Shown here one piece after another: positions 8,119 through 15,972 of a stretch of DNA of 64,000 nucleotides. Every line of letters starts with the position of its first letter. Position 1 is the stretch's first letter. This DNA is from Dehalococcoidia bacterium (lineage in GTDB: Bacteria; Chloroflexota; Dehalococcoidia; SM23-28-2): positions 82,480-146,479 of the forward strand of contig JAUWYP010000002.1 of assembly GCA_030615765.1 (NCBI GenBank), read 5' to 3'. The notes below the pieces were generated by a model. That model made no database searches, was not told the DNA's origin, and saw only the letters and a list, made by a program, of their open reading frames with translations. The position numbers were made by a program, and so were the translations under genes.

Positions 8119-9882
8119 ATGAAACGATTGCTATTCCGTCGGGGTGCCGTGCTGGCCCTGGCCCTGGCAGTTCTAGTGGCGACGGCGATGGCCCTATGGC
8201 TGGGCGTTTTCGGCCAGGAGCGGGCCGCGGCCTCGCCAGGTGTGGACCTCGTCATCACTAAGACGGCTTCACCCACGGAGGCCACGCCCGTAGCGGCAGG
8301 CGACACCATTACCTACACCCTGACGGCCACGAATGAGGGCGCTACGACCGCCAGCAACGCGGTCATCCGGGACTACCTAGGGAGCGGACTGACCTTTGTC
8401 TCCGTAGCGTCAGACACGGGGGTTACCTGTGAGGACCCAGTCACGCCGGCGGACGGCATTGACTGCACGGTGGCCAGCCTCGCAACTGACGCGAGCGCGA
8501 CGGTGACTATCGTCGCGACAGTGAGCGCGACCTCCGGCTTCGTCTACAACGGCGCCTACGTGGACCCGGATAACACCGAACCCGGCGAGGACAACGAAGA
8601 CGCCGACGACCCCGACCTCGACTGCACCGCGGCTACAGGGAGCGACGTAGGTGAAGGCAGTGACGCGGGGGATCCGACCGAGGACGACAACTACGACTGC
8701 ACCCGCCACGGCATGGTCGACCTGACCATCACCAAGGCCACCTCCCCCTCCGAAGGGACGGCGGTAGCCCTGGGGTCGGACATCGTCTACACTCTCACCG
8801 CCAGCAACGATGCCGCGGCTACGGGCACCGCCACCAACGTGGTCATCCGCGACTACATAGGGGACGGCCTCACCTTCGTCTCGGCGACGCCGGGCTCAGG
8901 GGTTACGTGCACCGACACCATGCCCCCGATCGACTGCACAGTCGCCAGCCTCGCCCCCGGGCAGAGCGGCGCGGTGGCCATCCTTGTGACGGTGGCGGCC
9001 ACCAGCGGCACGGTGTATAACGGCGCCAGGGTGGACCCGAATGACGTCATCAGCGAGGACAACGAGGACGCCGATGACCCTGCCCTCGCCTGTGCCGCGG
9101 TCGGGGAAGGCGCTGCTGGGGCCGCTGAGCCCGACAACTACGACTGCACCCGTCACACCGTGACTCTGCTGCCGGACCTGACCATCACCAAGACGGCCTC
9201 GCCCTCGGAAACCACAACAGTGGATACCGGCGACGCCATCACCTACACGTTGACGGTCAGCAACAGCGGCACGGGCACGGCCACCAACGTGCCTATCCGC
9301 GACTACATAGGGGACGGTCTCACCTTCGTCCTGGCGACGCCGGGCACGGGGGTCACCTGCGCCGACACCACGCCGTCCGAGATCAACTGCACGGCGACCA
9401 GCATCGCCTCCGGCGAAAGCCGGACGGTGACCATCGATGTGAGCGTGTCGGCCACCAGCGGCGCGGTGCTGAACGGCGCCAGGGTCGACCCCTTGGATGC
9501 CATCACCGAGACAAACGAGGACGCTAACGATCCCACCCGCGATTGTGGCGAACTGGGTGAGGGAACCGACGCCGGGAATGCGACGGAGGCCGACAACTAC
9601 GACTGCACCAGCCACACGCTGACGGCAGTCACGCCGACGCCCACTCCGGGCGAGCTCCTTAACTGCCCGTTCTCGGGCAAGTGGGCGATGTCGGTGTGGG
9701 ACGGCCCCAGCGGGACGGCCACTGCTGACGCCCTGGCTACCTGCACAGGCGTTACCATAGATGCCGCCTACTCGCTTGACCGCACCACCAACGTTTGGTA
9801 CCGCTACTTCCCGGGGCGCTCAGACATCAACAACCTGCTGACCCTCAACGACATGCAGGCGATCATCGTCCTCGGACGCTAG
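8119..9882 (+). CDS. secreted DUF11-type (conserved repeat domain) protein with three tandem modules plus a distinct C-terminal domain
   Basis: Signal-like N-terminus. The pattern DL.ITKTASP....G..ITYTLT..N.G...A.NV.IRDY.G.GLTFV occurs three times. AGGAGGG RBS upstream of the ATG. Confidence 0.8.
   Translation: MKRLLFRRGAVLALALAVLVATAMALWLGVFGQERAAASPGVDLVITKTASPTEATPVAAGDTITYTLTATNEGATTASNAVIRDYLGSGLTFVSVASDTGVTCEDPVTPADGIDCTVASLATDASATVTIVATVSATSGFVYNGAYVDPDNTEPGEDNEDADDPDLDCTAATGSDVGEGSDAGDPTEDDNYDCTRHGMVDLTITKATSPSEGTAVALGSDIVYTLTASNDAAATGTATNVVIRDYIGDGLTFVSATPGSGVTCTDTMPPIDCTVASLAPGQSGAVAILVTVAATSGTVYNGARVDPNDVISEDNEDADDPALACAAVGEGAAGAAEPDNYDCTRHTVTLLPDLTITKTASPSETTTVDTGDAITYTLTVSNSGTGTATNVPIRDYIGDGLTFVLATPGTGVTCADTTPSEINCTATSIASGESRTVTIDVSVSATSGAVLNGARVDPLDAITETNEDANDPTRDCGELGEGTDAGNATEADNYDCTSHTLTAVTPTPTPGELLNCPFSGKWAMSVWDGPSGTATADALATCTGVTIDAAYSLDRTTNVWYRYFPGRSDINNLLTLNDMQAIIVLGR
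8242..9621 (+). repeat. three in-frame tandem coding repeats (~150-158 codons each: 8242-8715, 8716-9171, 9172-9621)
   Basis: Repeat boundaries were located by aligning the translated modules. Each ends in an acidic linker, EDNEDADDP..C....GEG.....DNYDCT.H. Confidence 0.85.
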
Positions 9883-10622: not shown

Positions 10623-11930
10623 TCACTCTTGTGAAACCAGCAGAGAGGCGGCCGTAACCGTGGTGCCGGATGCGGACGGAGCCGGAATCCCCACCGCTGG
10701 AGCCAGGTTTGCCAGCAGCTGCAGCTCATCGGCCAGCAGGCGAGTGATGAGAAAGCGCTGGCGCACCCTCTCCCGACCGGCCAGCCCCCGTTTCCGGGCC
10801 TCCTCGCGATTATTCAGCAGGAACAGCACCCGCTCGGCGCACTCCTCGGTGTCGTCCACCAGGAAGCCTCCCACGTCGTTCTCCATCTGCAGGGGGATGC
10901 CGCCCGACCGATTGGCCACCACCGGCGTCCCCTTCCACATCGTCTCCGAGACCACCAGGCCGAAGCCCTCCCGGATCGACTTCTGAATCACCACGTCGGA
11001 CGAAGTCTGGAAAGCGCACACCTCCATGTCCCCCACGCCGATCAAGTTCGTCAGCACGTGGATGTCATCGTCGCCCCGCGTCTCGGCGACGATCTCGGAA
11101 TACATCTCCCACACCTCAGGGTCATCTGAGGCCATGGAACTGAGCAGGGCTAGCTGGAGACCTGGCACCTCCTCTCGCACCATGCGGTACACCTCGATCA
11201 CGCCGAGAGGGTCCTTCCACGGGTCGAAGCGGGATACCTGGGTCACCAGGGGCCGGCGGGGGTCTATGCCCCTCCAGGCCCGAATCTCCTGACATATCCC
11301 CTCTGAAAGCCCCACATTCTTGGGGCTCAGGGGATCGATGGCCGGGGTCATCGTAACCACCCGCTGGTGCTCCAGCCCTGGCGGCACAAAAGCATCCATG
11401 GTGAATACCAGGGCGTCATACTCGGCCACGAACGGCAAGATGAACTCCAGGACGGCCTCATTCGGTTCGGAGGTATCGATGTGACAGCGCCAGATCCACC
11501 TGGCCCCGTTTGGCCCCCGGAAGTGCCGGATGCCGGCGGGCTGAGGGTCATGCACGATGATAAAATCGTACTCCTCGTCCAGAAGCTGGGCGTTCCGAGT
11601 ATTGTACGCCTGGTACGTTTCGCGAGCGGCCCGCGTTAGCTTGTAGGGTGCACCTTGGAGCGCATTGTGAAAGGCCTTGGTGACGTTGAAGAACTCCGGG
11701 CGGGCTGAGATGAGCTTCCAGTCGGCCTGAATGCCCAGGCCACGGTACAGAGGCACAATCGACCTCAGCAGCTCGGAGACCCCGCCACCGTAGGTGGTGG
11801 CGTTGATGTGGGCTATGCGGGCGCCCCTGAGAGGCGCCGCCAGCTCTCTTATCTTCTCCACACCCTCCTCGCCGATGATGTGAGTGTAGGCACTCAGCGG
11901 CCTTGGTCCGACGTCTACGTGATCCAGCAT
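10623..11930 (-). CDS. GT4-family glycosyltransferase, trehalose-synthase (TreT)-like
   Basis: N-terminal INATTYGGGVSELLRS and C-terminal GT-B motif SIREGFGLVVSETMWKGTPVVA. The TreT-like assignment is from memory of that family's N-terminal region. Confidence 0.7.
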   Translation of the reverse strand: MLDHVDVGPRPLSAYTHIIGEEGVEKIRELAAPLRGARIAHINATTYGGGVSELLRSIVPLYRGLGIQADWKLISARPEFFNVTKAFHNALQGAPYKLTRAARETYQAYNTRNAQLLDEEYDFIIVHDPQPAGIRHFRGPNGARWIWRCHIDTSEPNEAVLEFILPFVAEYDALVFTMDAFVPPGLEHQRVVTMTPAIDPLSPKNVGLSEGICQEIRAWRGIDPRRPLVTQVSRFDPWKDPLGVIEVYRMVREEVPGLQLALLSSMASDDPEVWEMYSEIVAETRGDDDIHVLTNLIGVGDMEVCAFQTSSDVVIQKSIREGFGLVVSETMWKGTPVVANRSGGIPLQMENDVGGFLVDDTEECAERVLFLLNNREEARKRGLAGRERVRQRFLITRLLADELQLLANLAPAVGIPAPSASGTTVTAASLLVSQE

Positions 11931-12342
11931 AGTGCCCCCTCTTGTCCTTCTCGACCCTTCCTATCGTGCCGAAACAGCCCGCGGCCGATACCGCTTACGC
12001 TCTTGCCAGCCGCCAGACATGCCGGTGCCGATAGTAGTCGCCGAGCTAACCGCAGCGCGTCCGTTCTCACCCCTTGCGCTAGCGGGGTTCGACAAATGGA
12101 TCAGGAGAGGCGTGTCACCCTGATGCAGGCATCAGGGCCCCGCTTCCTTTGCTGAATAGGACGCGGTTCGCCCGCAATTGTTACAGTGATGTGCGGGCGC
12201 TGGCTATCTAATGCGGACGGGCACTGCCTAGCTGCAAGTGGATACTGGAGATGGGAGTATCCCTACAAAGCTGGGTAGAGTTCCATTCGAAGGGGAATCT
12301 GCCAACCGTTGGCGCAGCAACATGGCCATGGCAAGAGCGGCG

Positions 12343-12717
12343 GCCCAGCAGGCCTGTAAGCCGAGTTCTGTGCCTCCCCGCCCTAGGCGGGGAGCGGTGA
12401 CCATCAATCTAGGATGGCGGTTGCCCGCCACCTCCAGCGGCCAACCCGAGGACAGGCCGGGCGTCCTTGTGTCCTCCTATTTGGCCTTGCTCCGCGTGGG
12501 GTTTGCCCAGCCGACCGGTCATCCGGCCGCTGGTGAGCTCTTACCTCACCATTTCACCCTTACCCCGACATCTCACGAGTCGGGGCGGTGTGTTTCTGTG
12601 GCACTTTCCGTCGGGTTGCCCCGCCTGGGCGTTACCCAGCACGCTGCCCGGTGGAGCTCGGACTTTCCTCACCCCGGCACCTTACATGCCAGGGCGCGAT
12701 CACCCAGCCTACTGGGC
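12343..12717 (-). ncRNA. rnpB: RNase P RNA, bacterial type A
   Basis: The minus strand contains GAGGAAAGTCCGAGCTCCACC (P4 5' strand, CR-I) and ACAGAACTCGGCTTACAGGCC (P4 3' strand). P1 pairs GGCCCAGTAGGC with GCCTGCTGGGCC. A promoter places the TSS at about 12717. Confidence 0.9.
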
Positions 12718-12723
12718 CAACTC

Positions 12724-12752
12724 TATTGTAAAGCAGGACGGCTCGCCTGCCA
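12724..12752 (-). promoter_or_regulatory. sigma-70-like promoter of rnpB
   Basis: On the minus strand: TTGGCA, a 17-nt spacer, TACAAT, then 6 nt to the G that starts helix P1. Confidence 0.6.
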
Positions 12753-12754
12753 AG

Positions 12755-13174
12755 CTAGACGCCCGACCGGTCCAGGGCCTGGTTGGCTAGCTTGTCGGCC
12801 AGGGCATTGTCTGCGCGGGGGATGGCGACCGCCCTGAAGGAAGCGAAGCGCCAGCGCAGGTCTTTCATGCGGGCGAACAGGCGCTTCAGGCCAGGGTTGC
12901 GCACCTTGTACCGACTGTCTAGTTGGCGCACGACCAACTCGGAGTCCATCCGCAGCTCGACATCGCGCGCCCCCAGGGCTAGAGCCGCCTCCAGCCCAGC
13001 GATAGCCGCCCGGTATTCAGCCACGTTGTTGGTGGCTTGACCGATAGGCTCAGAGATACGGTGGCGCTCCCTATTCTTATCGTCAAAAATGACCACCCCA
13101 ATAGCCGCTGGCCCGGGGTTCCCCCGCGAGGCGCCATCGGCATAGACCACCCAGCACCCTTCGGCCGTGACCAC
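12755..13174 (-). CDS. rnhA: ribonuclease HI-family protein
   Basis: YADGASRGNPGPAAIG...TNNVAEYRAAIAGLE...DSELVVRQL...ADKLAN contains the DEDD-type RNase H residues. GTG start, with an AAGGAG RBS that overlaps the stop codon of the upstream gene. Confidence 0.85.
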   Translation of the reverse strand: MVTAEGCWVVYADGASRGNPGPAAIGVVIFDDKNRERHRISEPIGQATNNVAEYRAAIAGLEAALALGARDVELRMDSELVVRQLDSRYKVRNPGLKRLFARMKDLRWRFASFRAVAIPRADNALADKLANQALDRSGV

Positions 13175-13179
13175 GCTCC

Positions 13180-14586
13180 TTACAGACGCAGAAAGACGCG
13201 GATGCTATCGTCCCACACCACCACCCGCTCCAGCAGCTCCCCCAACAACGCCTGCTGCTCGAGTGGGGCGAGGCGATCCCATTCATCCCTCAGACGAGCT
13301 AGGGCCCGCTCCTTCTGCTGCTGCCTCTCAGCCGCCGACGCTTGCTGCCTGACGAACCGCTGCGCCTCTGCCAGGCTATCCTCCAGCGACAGGCCCTCCG
13401 CCGCGACGGCCACGCTAAGAGACCGCATTCGCTCGACACTGAGACGACCGCGGGCCGCCTCATTCATGTACCCTTCCAGACGCTTGTCCAGGCGGCGCAG
13501 GCGACCTCGCAGACGACGACAGCGCGCCTCCGCCTCTTGTAACACCGCTGCATCATCACCCGCCTTGGGGACGGCCACCACCGCTAACGACTTCTCCCCC
13601 AGAAGGGCCTCGCGCATCTCTTCTTCCAACCGCGCTGCCCGTCGGGTGTGGTAGTCGCACAGGCTGCGGTTGGTGCGCGACTCGCACTGATAGTAGCGGT
13701 ACTCCGCCCACTTCTCGGAGCCATCGCGACGGCGCCAGTGCTGACGGCGGCTCACACCGATCATCTTATTGCCGCAGTATCCGCAATAGGCCAGGCCCGA
13801 TAGTAGAAAGAGCGAGGTCCGCCGCTTGGCCCTCTCCTGGCGATGAGAGCTCAGGCGCTCCTGCACCCGCCGAAAGTCATCGCGGGAGATAAGAGCAGGA
13901 TGGCTGGCAGGAACGCGTACCCCGAATCGACTATAGGTACCCAGGTAGGTGCGATTGCGCAGGATATCGCGGACGGTCACCATGCTCCACAGGCCGTTGC
14001 GGTGGGTGCGCATCCCCTCCTCGTTGAGGCAGCGAGCGATGCGGCGGATGCCCAGACCGTCCCGCAGATAGAGGCGAAAGATGTAGCGCACAACCGAGGC
14101 TTCCCCAGGCACTATCTCCAGACGCCGACGTGGGCCCACTCGATAGCCGAAAGGCGGCCGCCCAAGGACCTCACCTTTTACGGCCTTGCGCCTCATGGCC
14201 GCCTGCACCTTCTGCCCCAGCCGCTCGTCCTTCTTTTCCGCCCAGCGAGAAAGCAGGGTGGAACCGGGGTCGGCGCCGTCCTCCAGGCACATCACCTTCA
14301 CGCCCAGGCTAGCCAGCTGGAAGTAACGCCTGGCCGCCTCCCACAGATCGCTCCCCAGGCTCGCCAGCGAGGGGATCACGACCATAGTGAATCCACGGTC
14401 GGGGCGCTGCTTGAGAAAATCGACGAGCTGGCGATAGCCAGCGCAGTCATCACCAGCGGCAGCCGCATCCAGGAAGGTAGCCGCCGCTTCATACCCATTC
14501 TGACGGCAGAAATCCAGGAAGGCGCGGCTCTGCTCAGCCAGTGGCTGGCTGCCGTCCGTCTCCCGGAAGTACCCTACCGCCTTCAC
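13180..14586 (-). CDS. large serine recombinase homologue with a degenerate catalytic domain
   Basis: Recombinase domain (PPFGYRV...VVRYIFRLYL..GLGIRRIARCLNEEG..T..G.W....V..ILRNRTYLG), zinc ribbon (CGYCGNKM...YYQCESR) and C-terminal coiled coil are present. The N-terminal resolvase motifs read YFRETDGSQ (expected Y.RVST..Q) and SLASLGSD (expected .DRL.R.). Confidence 0.8.
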   Translation of the reverse strand: MKAVGYFRETDGSQPLAEQSRAFLDFCRQNGYEAAATFLDAAAAGDDCAGYRQLVDFLKQRPDRGFTMVVIPSLASLGSDLWEAARRYFQLASLGVKVMCLEDGADPGSTLLSRWAEKKDERLGQKVQAAMRRKAVKGEVLGRPPFGYRVGPRRRLEIVPGEASVVRYIFRLYLRDGLGIRRIARCLNEEGMRTHRNGLWSMVTVRDILRNRTYLGTYSRFGVRVPASHPALISRDDFRRVQERLSSHRQERAKRRTSLFLLSGLAYCGYCGNKMIGVSRRQHWRRRDGSEKWAEYRYYQCESRTNRSLCDYHTRRAARLEEEMREALLGEKSLAVVAVPKAGDDAAVLQEAEARCRRLRGRLRRLDKRLEGYMNEAARGRLSVERMRSLSVAVAAEGLSLEDSLAEAQRFVRQQASAAERQQQKERALARLRDEWDRLAPLEQQALLGELLERVVVWDDSIRVFLRL

Positions 14587-14589
14587 AGC

Positions 14590-15306
14590 TCAGCTCACAT
14601 ACAGAATGCGCTCGCAGCTAACGCACTGCACCACGTCCAGGCCGGAGCGAGCCTTTTGCAATACGGTCATGGGCAGGCTGATGCGGCACCCCCCGCACAT
14701 GCCTCGCTCCACCTTGACCACTGCCTTCCCCTGGCGCCTCTGCCACAAGTTGTCATAGAGGGCCAGCACCTTCGCTTCTACCAGGCTTGACTGCCGCCCT
14801 CGCCTCTCCTCCAGCCCGGCCAGCTCGCCTTCCAGCCTTTCCTTCTCGCTGGCCAACTCCTTCTGCTCCTGCCGCCACCTCCCCTCCACCTCGGCCAGGG
14901 ATTCCTCCGCCTCTCGTAGGGCCGCTTGTCTCTCTTCCACGCGGACCATGATATCCAGAAGCTCATCCTCTCGCCGCCGCAACTGGCCCTTCAGGATGTT
15001 CGCCTCGTCCTGTACGCTCGCTAGCTCCTTAGGATTGCGCACCGAGCCCCCGTACAGCTTACCCTCCACGTCTGAGAGGCGTGAGCGAAGATCATCCACC
15101 TTCCACTCCTGGTCTCGCTGCTGCCTGCTGACGCCTTCAAGGGCATCCCGCGCCTCTTCGACTGCCTGGCGGCCAGCGATGAGCTCCTCGCTCTCCCCCA
15201 GTTGCTCCTCCACCGTCGCCAGGGAGGCCCTGGCGGCCTCGATAGCCGAATCGATCTCCTGAAGAGTGTAAAGGTCGGCCGCTATCGTCATTGTCAGTGA
15301 GGGCAT
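14590..15306 (-). CDS. DUF164/COG1579-type coiled-coil zinc-ribbon protein
   Basis: Long coiled coil followed by a C4 ribbon, CGGCRISLP....VVQCVSCERILY. Its stop is 3 nt from the next start. Confidence 0.8.
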   Translation of the reverse strand: MPSLTMTIAADLYTLQEIDSAIEAARASLATVEEQLGESEELIAGRQAVEEARDALEGVSRQQRDQEWKVDDLRSRLSDVEGKLYGGSVRNPKELASVQDEANILKGQLRRREDELLDIMVRVEERQAALREAEESLAEVEGRWRQEQKELASEKERLEGELAGLEERRGRQSSLVEAKVLALYDNLWQRRQGKAVVKVERGMCGGCRISLPMTVLQKARSGLDVVQCVSCERILYVS

Positions 15307-15432
15307 GGAGCTACCGAATCAAGCAAGGGGTAGACAATGCTCGCGGCAGGATTATAGACTTAGAGAGAGGCCCCTGACAAGGCGACAGCCAATCTGGTGC
15401 AGCATTCGACCGCATTTTGGGGACAGATTTTT

Positions 15433-15972
15433 ATGCAATTTGTCATAGGTCAGCAGTTGCGCGAGCCCGTGGGCAGCGTCACCCATTACGAGATTAGCGA
15501 GAGCAAACCCCTACCCCAGGGAGAAGACTCCCTGAGCGAGCTGACGGGTAGCGTCGACCTCATGCGGACGGACAAGGGGATTCTGGTCTCCGTCGCCCTT
15601 CACTGCATCATCGCCGGCAGGTGCAGCCGCTGCCTGACCGACATATCCTATCCCCTTACCCTTTCTTTCCAAGAGGAGTATGTGCCTACGGTGGACGCCT
15701 CCACCGGCGAGTCTCTGCCTTCGCCCCCTGACCCCGACGCCTTCCTCATCGACAGTCACCAGGTGCTCGACCTGACGGAGGCGGTGCGGCAGTATCGGCT
15801 AGTGGCCGAGCCCATGAAACCCCTTTGCAAGCCCGATTGCCTTGGCCTCTGCCCTCATTGCGGTTATAATCTTAACCAGGGCCCTTGCGGCTGCCCCAGC
15901 CAGGAGACCGATGCCCGCTGGGCACCTCTGGCAGAGTTGGCCGTGAAAACCGAGCAGGAACAGGAGTCTTAG
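15433..15972 (+). CDS. yceD: YceD/DUF177 family protein
   Basis: RCLTD...EPMKPLCKPDCLGLCPHCGYNLNQGPCGC, located immediately upstream of rpmF. The start is either the ATG at 15433 or the GTG at 15397. Confidence 0.8.
   Translation: MQFVIGQQLREPVGSVTHYEISESKPLPQGEDSLSELTGSVDLMRTDKGILVSVALHCIIAGRCSRCLTDISYPLTLSFQEEYVPTVDASTGESLPSPPDPDAFLIDSHQVLDLTEAVRQYRLVAEPMKPLCKPDCLGLCPHCGYNLNQGPCGCPSQETDARWAPLAELAVKTEQEQES

What the first reader, a model, noticed from the sequence alone, without database searches (positions are those of the whole stretch)
13180..14586. Large-serine-recombinase homologue with substituted catalytic residues, translationally coupled inside a DUF164 / RNase H operon next to rnpB
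Seen in the sequence: the 468-aa protein keeps the recombinase domain, the zinc-ribbon (CGYCGNKM ... YYQCESR) and the coiled coil of large serine recombinases. Where the resolvase domain normally reads Y-x-R-V-S-T-x-x-Q it reads YFRETDGSQ, so Thr sits in place of the nucleophilic Ser. Where it normally reads D-R-L-x-R it reads ASLGS, so the Asp and both Arg are lost in my by-eye alignment to Bxb1 and phiC31-type integrases. The gene starts 3 nt after the DUF164 stop. It ends 5 nt before the RNase H GTG, whose AAGGAG RBS overlaps its own TAA. I saw no att-like repeats or phage/ICE cargo on either side. Established knowledge, from memory: a COG1579/DUF164 zinc-ribbon gene directly followed by an RNase H-domain gene is a conserved pair in Actinobacteria, for example the M. 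tuberculosis Rv2229c-Rv2228c arrangement. Inference: this looks like a domesticated, probably non-recombinogenic DNA-binding derivative inserted into a conserved nucleic-acid-processing operon, not a mobile-element integrase.
Basis: partly seen in the sequence, partly recalled or inferred. Interest (0 to 1): 0.6.

Follow-up and report, generated by a model that had tools for sequence, protein, structure and literature searches.

The report
Dead serine integrase kept as host gene
This gene encodes a full-length relative of phage "large serine integrases" that has lost its DNA-cutting residues. About half of the sampled Dehalococcoidia species keep it as a single-copy, selected chromosomal gene, placed between a zinc-ribbon factor gene and RNase H next to the RNase P RNA gene, so a mobile-element enzyme appears to have been reused as a non-cutting, probably DNA-binding, host protein.

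Summary
Window 13180-14586 (minus strand) encodes a 468-aa protein with Resolvase, Recombinase and zinc-ribbon domains plus a coiled coil.

**Catalytic residues.** Profile-profile and pairwise alignments put Thr10 at the Ser nucleophile. C48, A75, S76 and S79 sit at the gamma-delta R45, D67, R68 and R71 positions. These columns vary across the family, and no member has the full constellation.

**Distribution.** It is not a mobile-element integrase. One orthologue occurs in 75 of 151 sampled genomes of the class, and none was found in about 270 genomes of other Chloroflexota classes. About 170 clusters at 50% identity exist.

**Synteny.**
- DUF164/CT398 gene directly upstream: 74 of 76 loci
- RNase H directly downstream: 65 of 76
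- rnpB downstream: 60 of 65

Class members that lack the gene have DUF164-RNase H-rnpB contiguous.

**Selection.** dN/dS is 0.12-0.24 in every domain. Conservation has moved from the catalytic domain to the basic DNA-binding domains.

**Reading.** This is most likely a domesticated, non-cutting DNA-binding factor that works with the DUF164 protein, which has been predicted to bind RNA polymerase. No target site or contact was found.

This scan has reported the same family before on other genomes, and I found no paper on it.

The parts
15351..15380 (-). Promoter-like site TTGTCA-18-TATAAT upstream of the DUF164 gene. The extended -10 sequence AAGTCTATAATCCTG occurs once in the genome.
   Evidence: 11 of 12 matches; the extended element recurs within 2 mismatches in 39 of 77 orthologous loci, and CTATAATC in most.
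14590..15306 (-). DUF164/COG1579 (CT398/CdsZ/FlgZ-like) gene: coiled-coil hairpin plus C4 zinc ribbon, 238 aa.
   Evidence: CT398_CC 43.8 bits, Zn_ribbon_9 28.7 bits; the four Cys are invariant in 22 orthologues.
13180..14586 (-). Catalytically degenerate large-serine-recombinase homologue, 468 aa, GTG start 3 nt after the DUF164 stop.
14257..14586 (-). Resolvase-fold N-terminal domain (residues 1-110). It is acidic, confidently folded and lacks the catalytic constellation.
   Evidence: pLDDT about 80-90. TP901-1 catalytic domain 3bvp, TMt 0.71; dN/dS 0.10-0.31.
14557..14559 (-). Codon of Thr10, at the position of the Ser nucleophile.
   Evidence: The column reads T9 G7 D5 A5 S5 R4 and others in 56 orthologues.
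14350..14364 (-). A75-S76-L77-G78-S79 in place of the D-R-L-x-R motif.
   Evidence: The columns vary.
13849..14103 (-). Recombinase domain (Pfam 162-246), the most conserved and most basic part of the protein.
   Evidence: mean conservation 0.74, pI 11.65.
13612..13806 (-). Recombinase zinc beta-ribbon (Pfam 261-325) with C268, C271, C301 and C310.
   Evidence: (invariant Cys).
13267..13596 (-). Coiled-coil motif (about residues 331-440), followed by the C-terminal strand.
   Evidence: helices 345-378 and 384-438; aligns to SprA and the A118 integrase through the C-terminus.
12755..13174 (-). RNase HI-type gene, 139 aa, GTG start 5 nt after the recombinase-like stop. Its AAGGAG overlaps that stop.
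12725..12753 (-). Promoter-like site TTGGCA-17-TACAAT for rnpB, directly after the RNase H stop codon.
   Evidence: a -10 box about 7 nt before rnpB in most orthologous loci.
12341..12715 (-). RNase P RNA gene (rnpB, bacterial class A).
   Evidence: 300.1 bits, full length.

Best explanation
The gene is a domesticated, catalytically inactive descendant of a large serine recombinase. An ancestor of part of the class Dehalococcoidia acquired an integrase gene between the DUF164 (CT398/FlgZ-type zinc-ribbon) gene and the RNase H gene of an older DUF164-RNase H-rnpB cluster. The Ser nucleophile and the Arg/Asp catalytic residues were then lost, and the gene has since been inherited vertically as a single-copy host gene. 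What has been kept, and is now most strongly conserved, is the DNA-recognition apparatus of an integrase: the end of helix E and its linker, the Recombinase domain and the zinc ribbon. A still-folded N-terminal domain and the coiled coil are also retained. I infer that the protein binds a conserved att-like DNA site as a dimer without cutting it. It is made in fixed proportion with the DUF164 protein through translational coupling from one promoter. It probably works with that protein, which has been predicted to bind RNA polymerase beta', as a site-specific DNA-binding or tethering factor. Shown: loss of the catalytic residues, domain architecture and fold, clade-wide synteny, purifying selection, absence of mobile-element features. 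Inferred: DNA binding, dimerisation, partnership with DUF164, any link to transcription.
For: Architecture and fold. Pfam finds Resolvase, Recombinase and Zn_ribbon_recom. The family profile aligns to SprA and the A118 integrase over residues 117-466. The AlphaFold2 model (mean pLDDT 73.8) is best matched by full-length SprA, Bxb1, PhiC31 and A118 integrases at E 1e-17 to 1e-11.

Dead chemistry. hhalign against intact LSRs of the same class and BLASTP against intact P0259 place T10, C48, A75, S76 and S79 at the Ser, Arg, Asp, Arg and Arg positions. In 56 orthologues and 102 full-length representatives these columns vary, and no family member has the full set.

Host gene. One orthologue occurs in 75 of 151 class genomes, clearly separated in score from intact paralogues. 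Many near-complete genomes carry it as their only LSR-like gene. No orthologue was found in the Chloroflexota genomes sampled outside the class. 270 species contigs hold a relative, and the 80 best kept are all Chloroflexota-type MAGs bar one likely misbinned contig.

Synteny. DUF164 lies upstream in 74 of 76 loci, RNase H downstream in 65 of 76, and rnpB downstream in 60 of 65. The gap to DUF164 is mostly -1 to 13 nt in the 20 nearest orthologous loci and 2-167 nt in more distant ones. The 'empty site' DUF164-RNase H-rnpB is seen in G014 and G055, and DUF164-RNase H in G098.

Selection. dN/dS is 0.12-0.24 overall and under 0.31 in every domain. Pairwise distances track those of DUF164 (r 0.90) and RNase H (r 0.80), and the protein evolves more slowly than DUF164.

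Shift of constraint. Family conservation is NTD 0.55, Recombinase domain 0.74 and zinc ribbon 0.71. The last two are basic, with pI 11.65 and 9.5. Intact LSRs of similar divergence show the reverse pattern.

Single origin. On a FastTree tree the degenerate sequences lie on one side of a branch with SH-like support 98.

DUF164 and RNA polymerase. An AF3-based prediction for ML1638 and CT398 is reported in bioRxiv 10.64898/2026.07.15.738315.
Against: No DNA target was found. There is no conserved palindrome near the operon, and the only conserved non-coding element is the promoter -10 region, which may be plain phylogenetic footprint. DNA binding, dimerisation and contact with DUF164 are untested. 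In one genus (L045-L048) the orthologue has a much-degenerated N-terminus and no DUF164 gene directly upstream, so the pairing is not absolute. Five of 56 orthologues do carry Ser at the nucleophile position, and three keep D-R-L-G-R, though never together. About half of the class does without the gene.
Confidence: 0.6

Rival explanations
1. The protein binds RNA or RNA:DNA hybrids rather than duplex DNA. It would act with RNase H and/or the RNase P RNA encoded next to it, for example in R-loop handling or in RNase P RNA biogenesis or regulation.
For: RNase H lies directly downstream in 65 of 76 loci, and rnpB within about 0.5-1.7 kb on the same strand in 60 of 65. The protein is very basic, with pI 10.0 overall. 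COG1579 is annotated as a predicted nucleic-acid-binding protein (PMC8469502).
Against: The DUF164-RNase H-rnpB linkage predates the gene and exists without it, so the neighbourhood may only reflect where the gene landed. The Recombinase domain and zinc ribbon are known only as duplex-DNA readers (4kis, 9dxd and others). rnpB has its own promoter.
Confidence: 0.15
2. It is a non-catalytic partner or decoy for intact serine recombinases. It could be a regulatory subunit, or a dominant-negative that blocks integration of invading elements by occupying att sites or forming dead heteromers.
For: The N-terminal domain, helix E and coiled coil, which are the oligomerisation surfaces of LSRs, are retained and under purifying selection. 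Many Dehalococcoidia genomes carry several intact LSRs, and G000 carries one.
Against: Many near-complete genomes have the orthologue as their only LSR-like hit. Examples are G062, G105, G015, G036 and G067, at 97-100% completeness, each with one match at E <= 1e-3. The near-invariant DNA-binding domains point to one fixed target rather than an arms race. Fixed synteny and coupling to DUF164 are unexplained by this reading.
Confidence: 0.07
3. It is still an active recombinase, using Thr10 or another residue as nucleophile, or acting on a specialised chromosomal site.
For: Thr carries a hydroxyl. Y6 and R8 are mostly retained, and a few members keep Ser at position 10 or keep D-R-L-G-R.
Against: The nucleophile column has at least 16 different residues, including Gly, Asp, Ala and Arg. 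The R45, D67, R68 and R71 equivalents are also variable, and no sequence combines them. No inverted or direct repeats bound a segment here.
Confidence: 0.04
4. It is a decaying integrase pseudogene left by an old prophage or ICE.
For: The catalytic motifs are degenerate. One genome (G006) has the gene in three frames.
Against: The reading frame is intact in about 170 clusters at 50% identity. dN/dS is 0.12-0.24. The gene is slower-evolving than its DUF164 neighbour. Coupling is tight in the close loci: the gap to DUF164 is mostly -1 to 13 nt in the 20 nearest orthologous loci and 2-167 nt in more distant ones.
Confidence: 0.01

Closest known systems
Large serine recombinases / serine integrases (SPbeta SprA 9dxd/9y66, Listeria A118/LI integrase 4kis, Bxb1 9iu2, PhiC31 9rah, TP901-1 3bvp)
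   Same: The domain order and fold are the same from end to end: resolvase-fold N-terminal domain, helix E, Recombinase domain, Cys4 zinc ribbon, an inserted coiled coil and a C-terminal strand. The nearest intact relative seen, P0259, aligns over 474 columns at 29% identity.
   Different: The Ser nucleophile is absent and the R45, D67, R68 and R71 equivalents are lost. There are no att sites, cargo or mobility. The gene is single-copy and vertically inherited in a housekeeping operon. Conservation is highest in the DNA-binding domains instead of the catalytic domain.
XisF / SpoIVCA-type chromosomal developmental LSRs (NCBIfam NF041201 is the best NCBIfam hit)
   Same: These are also host-encoded LSRs at chromosomal loci. 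The match covers residues 46-457.
   Different: The score is 75.5 bits against a cut-off of 375. Those enzymes are catalytically active and excise a defined element, whereas this one lacks the chemistry and has no element.
DUF164/COG1579 proteins (H. pylori FlgZ/HP0958, C. trachomatis CT398/CdsZ, M. smegmatis MSMEG_4306, M. leprae ML1638): the partner gene, not this protein
   Same: The upstream gene has the CT398 coiled-coil hairpin and the C4 zinc ribbon. Its linkage to RNase H and rnpB is described in other phyla (PMC3372290).
   Different: I know of no other lineage in which a recombinase-derived gene sits between DUF164 and RNase H. RNA polymerase binding by DUF164 proteins is itself only a prediction.
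Domesticated transposases and recombinases in general (e.g. ciliate PiggyMac partners, PMC6143343)
   Same: A mobile-element enzyme has been fixed as a host gene, and non-catalytic copies are kept for their binding or assembly roles.
   Different: Those cases are eukaryotic and of the DDE type. My library searches found no paper that describes a conserved, catalytically dead serine recombinase as a bacterial core gene.

Membership tests
Large serine recombinase (serine integrase) | Resolvase-fold N-terminal domain recognised by PF00239 | tested here: met
   36.7 bits against a cut-off of 23.3, covering 1-144 of 145 profile positions. The fold matches 3bvp (TMt 0.71) and 3guv (TMt 0.65).
Large serine recombinase (serine integrase) | Recombinase domain plus Cys4 zinc beta-ribbon plus inserted coiled coil | tested here: met
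   PF07508 at 76.4 bits and PF13408 at 45.4 bits. C268, C271, C301 and C310 are invariant. Helices 345-438 are modelled and align to SprA and A118 through residue 466.
Large serine recombinase (serine integrase) | Catalytic Ser nucleophile in the Y-x-R-V-S motif | tested here: not met
   Thr10 occupies that position. The column is hypervariable in 56 orthologues and 102 representatives. Intact paralogues of the same class read YARVSS.
Large serine recombinase (serine integrase) | Arg/Asp constellation (gamma-delta R8, R45, D67, R68, R71) | tested here: not met
   R8 is kept. C48, A75, S76 and S79 replace the other four. These columns vary across the family.
Large serine recombinase (serine integrase) | Association with att sites and a mobile or excisable element | tested here: not met
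   There are no flanking repeats, tRNA or cargo, and GC content is uniform. The slot is fixed in 74 of 76 species loci.
Large serine recombinase (serine integrase) | DNA cleavage and strand-exchange activity | not testable with these tools
   This needs biochemistry.
XisF equivalog (NF041201) | Score over the curated cut-off | tested here: not met
   75.5 bits against 375.
Dehalococcoidia dead-LSR family (defined here and in earlier reports of this scan) | Orthologue-level similarity, degenerate catalytic motifs, and the slot directly after DUF164 | tested here: met
   The protein is 58-91% identical to more than 100 clusters. The signature peptides A[VI]KGE[VA]LGR and YRYYQCES are present. 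It sits 3 nt after DUF164.
DUF164/CT398 family (upstream gene) | CT398 coiled-coil hairpin and C4 zinc ribbon | tested here: met
   PF24481 scores 43.8 bits against a cut-off of 27. PF02591 scores 28.7 against 29.1, just under the cut-off. The four Cys are invariant in 22 orthologues.

The most novel reading that the evidence does not exclude
A phage-type serine integrase has been converted into a core, non-cutting DNA-site reader that works as one unit with the DUF164 zinc-ribbon protein on RNA polymerase. It could tether or position the polymerase at conserved sites. Alternatively it could bridge two DNA sites through its retained coiled coil without cleavage. Either way it would be a lineage-specific component of the transcription or nucleoid machinery of Dehalococcoidia, and the first functional handle on the widespread DUF164 family.
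Probability: 0.3. Interest if true: 0.8.

Novelty: new variant of a known kind. Interest (0 to 1): 0.62.

Why it matters
Serine integrases are known as mobile-element enzymes and as genome-engineering tools. A version that has been catalytically dead since before the family diversified, yet is kept under selection as a core gene in hundreds of uncultured species, would show that the LSR DNA-recognition scaffold can be reused for a non-recombination role in bacteria. Its fixed, translationally coupled pairing with a DUF164/CT398-type protein gives a concrete, testable partner for a widespread family whose function is still unclear. It also offers a natural binding-only LSR for studying att-site recognition and coiled-coil synapsis apart from catalysis.

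Tried and rejected
- **Complex prediction.** The predicted complex of the dead LSR with the DUF164 protein, each supplied as an alignment, gave no verdict (score 0.01, mark 0.32). This is evidence neither for nor against binding.
- **Binding-site search.**
  - Inverted repeats across 11900-15500 were only short and inside coding sequence.
  - Footprinting of the DUF164 upstream region in 77 loci found only the promoter. The extended -10 sequence AAGTCTATAATCCTG occurs once in the genome. Genomes without the gene have only a plain TATAAT-type box there. I therefore read the element as a conserved promoter, not as a demonstrated operator.
  - The region upstream of rnpB in 69 loci shows only a -10 box.
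- **att-like direct repeats.** Only short imperfect matches turned up between coiled-coil-coding stretches. The LSR coiled coil and DUF164 are not homologous (E 0.39).
- **Fused DUF164-LSR forms.** None was found among proteins of 820-2340 aa (weak evidence), and none among the 150 listed representatives, whose maximum length is 498 aa.
- **Expression.** RNA-labelled runs hold only small shares of the stretch, mostly rnpB. One metatranscriptome (X4) has contigs of about 92%-identical relatives over 13459-14245 and across the DUF164/LSR junction at 14465-14659. Contigs in an RNA library do not prove transcription, so this is a weak hint only.
- **Literature.** Searches for a described dead or domesticated serine recombinase found nothing relevant.
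Full report
**Observation**

The window's minus strand carries four tightly packed genes.
- A 238-aa DUF164/CT398-type gene lies at 15306-14590.
- The 468-aa gene in question lies at 14586-13180 and has a GTG start.
- A 139-aa RNase HI-type gene lies at 13174-12755.
- rnpB lies at 12715-12341.

The spacers are 3 nt and 5 nt, and the RNase H AAGGAG overlaps the preceding TAA.

Pfam finds three domains in the 468-aa protein: Resolvase (3-139, weak but full-length), Recombinase (162-246) and the recombinase zinc ribbon (261-325). The neighbours match CT398_CC with Zn_ribbon_9, and RVT_3 with RNase_H.

A sigma-70-like promoter (TTGTCA-18-TATAAT) precedes the DUF164 gene. A second one (TTGGCA-17-TACAAT) sits between the RNase H stop and rnpB. 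The flanking genes are housekeeping: yceD, fabD, fabG and nusB diverge on one side, and a trehalose synthase lies on the other. I found no tRNA, no att-like repeat and no GC anomaly.

**Catalytic residues**

1. hhalign of a 36-sequence family alignment against 13 intact LSRs from genomes of the same class, which read Y-A-R-V-S-S and (D/S)-R-x-x-R, gave a global alignment at probability 100%. It pairs Y6 with Y, R8 with R and E9 with V. T10 falls at the Ser nucleophile, and C48, A75, S76 and S79 at the R45-, D67-, R68- and R71-equivalent positions.
2. The family HMM aligned to the 3guv resolvase-family structure pairs the family's L-A-S-L-G-x segment with L-S-R-F-A-R.
3. BLASTP against P0259, an intact LSR of nearly the same length (YYRVSTDRQ, FLDRFGRN), aligns end to end at E 2e-41 with the same pairings.

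Across 56 orthologues the nucleophile column reads T9, G7, D5, A5, S5, R4 and ten further residue types, and the Asp/Arg columns are equally mixed. The same holds in 102 full-length representatives of the whole family. A few members keep Ser at position 10 and a few keep D-R-L-G-R, but never together. The only sequences in the list with the full set (P0259, P0263, and P0269 once its mis-called start is allowed for) fall with the intact LSRs on a tree. The catalytic apparatus was therefore lost early and is not under selection.

**What is retained**

The AlphaFold2 model has mean pLDDT 73.8, with the N-terminal domain at about 80-90. Its best matches in the PDB are full-length serine integrases: SprA, Bxb1, PhiC31 and A118. 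The N-terminal domain on its own matches the TP901-1 catalytic domain. The four zinc-ribbon cysteines are invariant.

Conservation by domain is as follows:

| Region | Mean conservation | pI |
|---|---|---|
| N-terminal domain | 0.55 | 4.65 |
| End of helix E and linker | 0.67 | 11.0 |
| Recombinase domain | 0.74 | 11.65 |
| Zinc ribbon | 0.71 | 9.5 |
| Coiled coil | 0.47 | 10.1 |

Intact LSRs of the same class at similar overall divergence show the opposite pattern: the catalytic domain and helix E score about 0.65-0.84 and the Recombinase domain about 0.53-0.65. Selection has moved from the chemistry to the DNA-reading parts.

**Distribution and inheritance**

- A database search returned more than 1500 relatives. 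The top 120 are all full-length or nearly so, 58-91% identical, and labelled Dehalococcoidia or Chloroflexota where named.
- In 151 genomes sampled from the class, 75 have exactly one orthologue at E <= 1e-35. One of these (G006) has the gene split over three frames. Intact LSR paralogues score only 1e-20 to 1e-30, so the two groups separate cleanly.
- Many near-complete genomes have the orthologue as their only LSR-like gene.
- In a phylum-wide sample of 301 genomes the only matches at that level were members of the same class.
- A scan of one genome per species found 270 contigs with a relative. The best 80 are all Dehalococcoidia or Chloroflexota-type MAGs, apart from a 5-kb low-coverage contig binned as Acidobacteriota, which I take to be misbinned.
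- An exhaustive search of 1.84 billion representatives gave 168 clusters at E <= 1e-30, against 27,073 for the LSR superfamily as a whole.
- The ESM Atlas neighbours are Chloroflexota clusters in which only 53-75% of members still trigger the Resolvase model.

**Synteny**

In the 80 species loci, the counts among loci with enough flanking sequence are as follows:

| Neighbour | Loci |
|---|---|
| DUF164 gene directly upstream, same strand | 74 of 76 |
| RNase H gene directly downstream | 65 of 76 |
| rnpB further downstream, same strand | 60 of 65 |

In the class sample the DUF164 gene was upstream in 20 of 20 close loci and 14 of 20 distant loci. The gap from the DUF164 stop to the start is mostly -1 to 13 nt in the 20 closer loci and 2-167 nt in more distant ones.

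Class members without the gene were also examined. G014 and G055 have DUF164, RNase H and rnpB contiguous, and G098 has DUF164 followed directly by RNase H. In G013, rnpB directly follows DUF164. The same linkage of DUF164 with RNase H and with the RNase P RNA gene is drawn for other phyla by Pereira et al. 2011 (PMC3372290).

**Selection**

- Nei-Gojobori dN/dS against twelve relatives is 0.12-0.24 overall, and 0.10-0.31 for the dead N-terminal domain alone.
- Pairwise distances among 68 loci correlate with those of DUF164 (r 0.90) and of RNase H (r 0.80). The protein diverges less (mean 0.40) than DUF164 (0.51). Related genomes are not independent, so I attach no p-value to these figures.
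- On a FastTree tree the degenerate sequences form one side of a branch with SH-like support 98 against the intact ones. This is consistent with a single domestication.

**Mechanism**

The following points are shown: a complete integrase scaffold without its chemistry, fixed in the chromosome, co-located and apparently translationally coupled with DUF164, and under purifying selection that is strongest on the DNA-binding modules.

The following points are inferred. The protein probably binds a conserved att-like duplex site as a dimer and does not cut it. It probably acts together with the DUF164 protein. A 2026 preprint predicts, by AlphaFold3, that DUF164 proteins (ML1638, CT398) lie across RNA polymerase beta'. 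If that holds, the pair could link a DNA site to the polymerase. The retained coiled coil might also bridge sites.

I could not find the site, and the complex prediction gave no verdict.

The rivals are an RNA or hybrid-binding role tied to RNase H or rnpB, a decoy or regulatory subunit for intact LSRs, residual activity, and decay. They are weighed in their own sections. The last two are poorly compatible with the column variability and with the selection data.

**Relation to earlier work**

This scan has already reported the same family on other genomes (e1-1443175, e1-5283636, e1-5217098, e1-2252350, e1-1460474, e1-2173091, e1-1206198, e1-5330633, e1-961233). My tests were run on this window and on my own samples, and they agree with those reports, with one difference. 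One note says the gene is conserved 'across the phylum', whereas in my samples it is confined to one class.

I found no paper that describes this family. It fails the defining catalytic and mobility features of serine integrases, so I file it as an LSR-derived, non-catalytic variant rather than as an integrase.

Noticed in passing
window 15347-15361 (minus): The extended -10 element AAGTCTATAATCCTG of the DUF164 operon promoter occurs only once in the 2.08-Mb genome. It recurs within 2 mismatches in 39 of 77 orthologous loci at a fixed distance of about 65-80 nt from the start codon. Genomes without the dead LSR show only a plain TATAAT-type box. It could be an operator or just a conserved strong promoter.
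   Followed up: partly
L001 (G000:C5:10850-14290), ORF 1435-2874 +: The same genome holds one intact large serine recombinase (YLRISDD, WKIDRLTRR; PF00239 at 120 bits) on another contig, presumably from a mobile element. Its context was not examined.
   Followed up: no
L045-L048 (genus g11: G131, G075, G096, G049): In one genus the orthologue aligns only from about residue 87, so its N-terminal domain is heavily degenerated. No DUF164 gene lies directly upstream, and the gene is followed by an unknown 200-aa ORF and then rplU and rpmA. This suggests the N-terminal domain and the DUF164 linkage are dispensable in some lineages.
   Followed up: partly
L052 (G006:C1:1952954-1962392): The orthologue is split over three reading frames (query 1-96, 108-320, 317-467) in a single-contig genome of 81% completeness. 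This is either a real pseudogene or indel errors in a long-read assembly.
   Followed up: no
L065 (JAIVWR010000093.1): A 5.3-kb contig at 0.31x coverage, binned as Acidobacteriota, carries a 91%-identical copy with the same RNase H-rnpB context. It is most likely a misbinned Dehalococcoidia contig.
   Followed up: no
L012, L014, L019 (G126, G089, G143): Some orthologues still read V-D-R-L-G-R (D67, R68 and R71 equivalents intact) while having Asp or Ala at the nucleophile position. The catalytic residues were therefore lost stepwise and in different orders in different lineages.
   Followed up: partly
window 8119-9882 (+): A 587-aa protein with three DUF11 repeats and a CARDB domain (surface or adhesin-like) lies a few kb from the operon.
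   Followed up: no
window 12404-12715 in RNA runs X1, X4, X6, X10: rnpB-like contigs are extremely abundant in sediment metatranscriptomes, with summed word depth above one million in X6. This reflects conserved RNase P RNA from many organisms.
   Followed up: no
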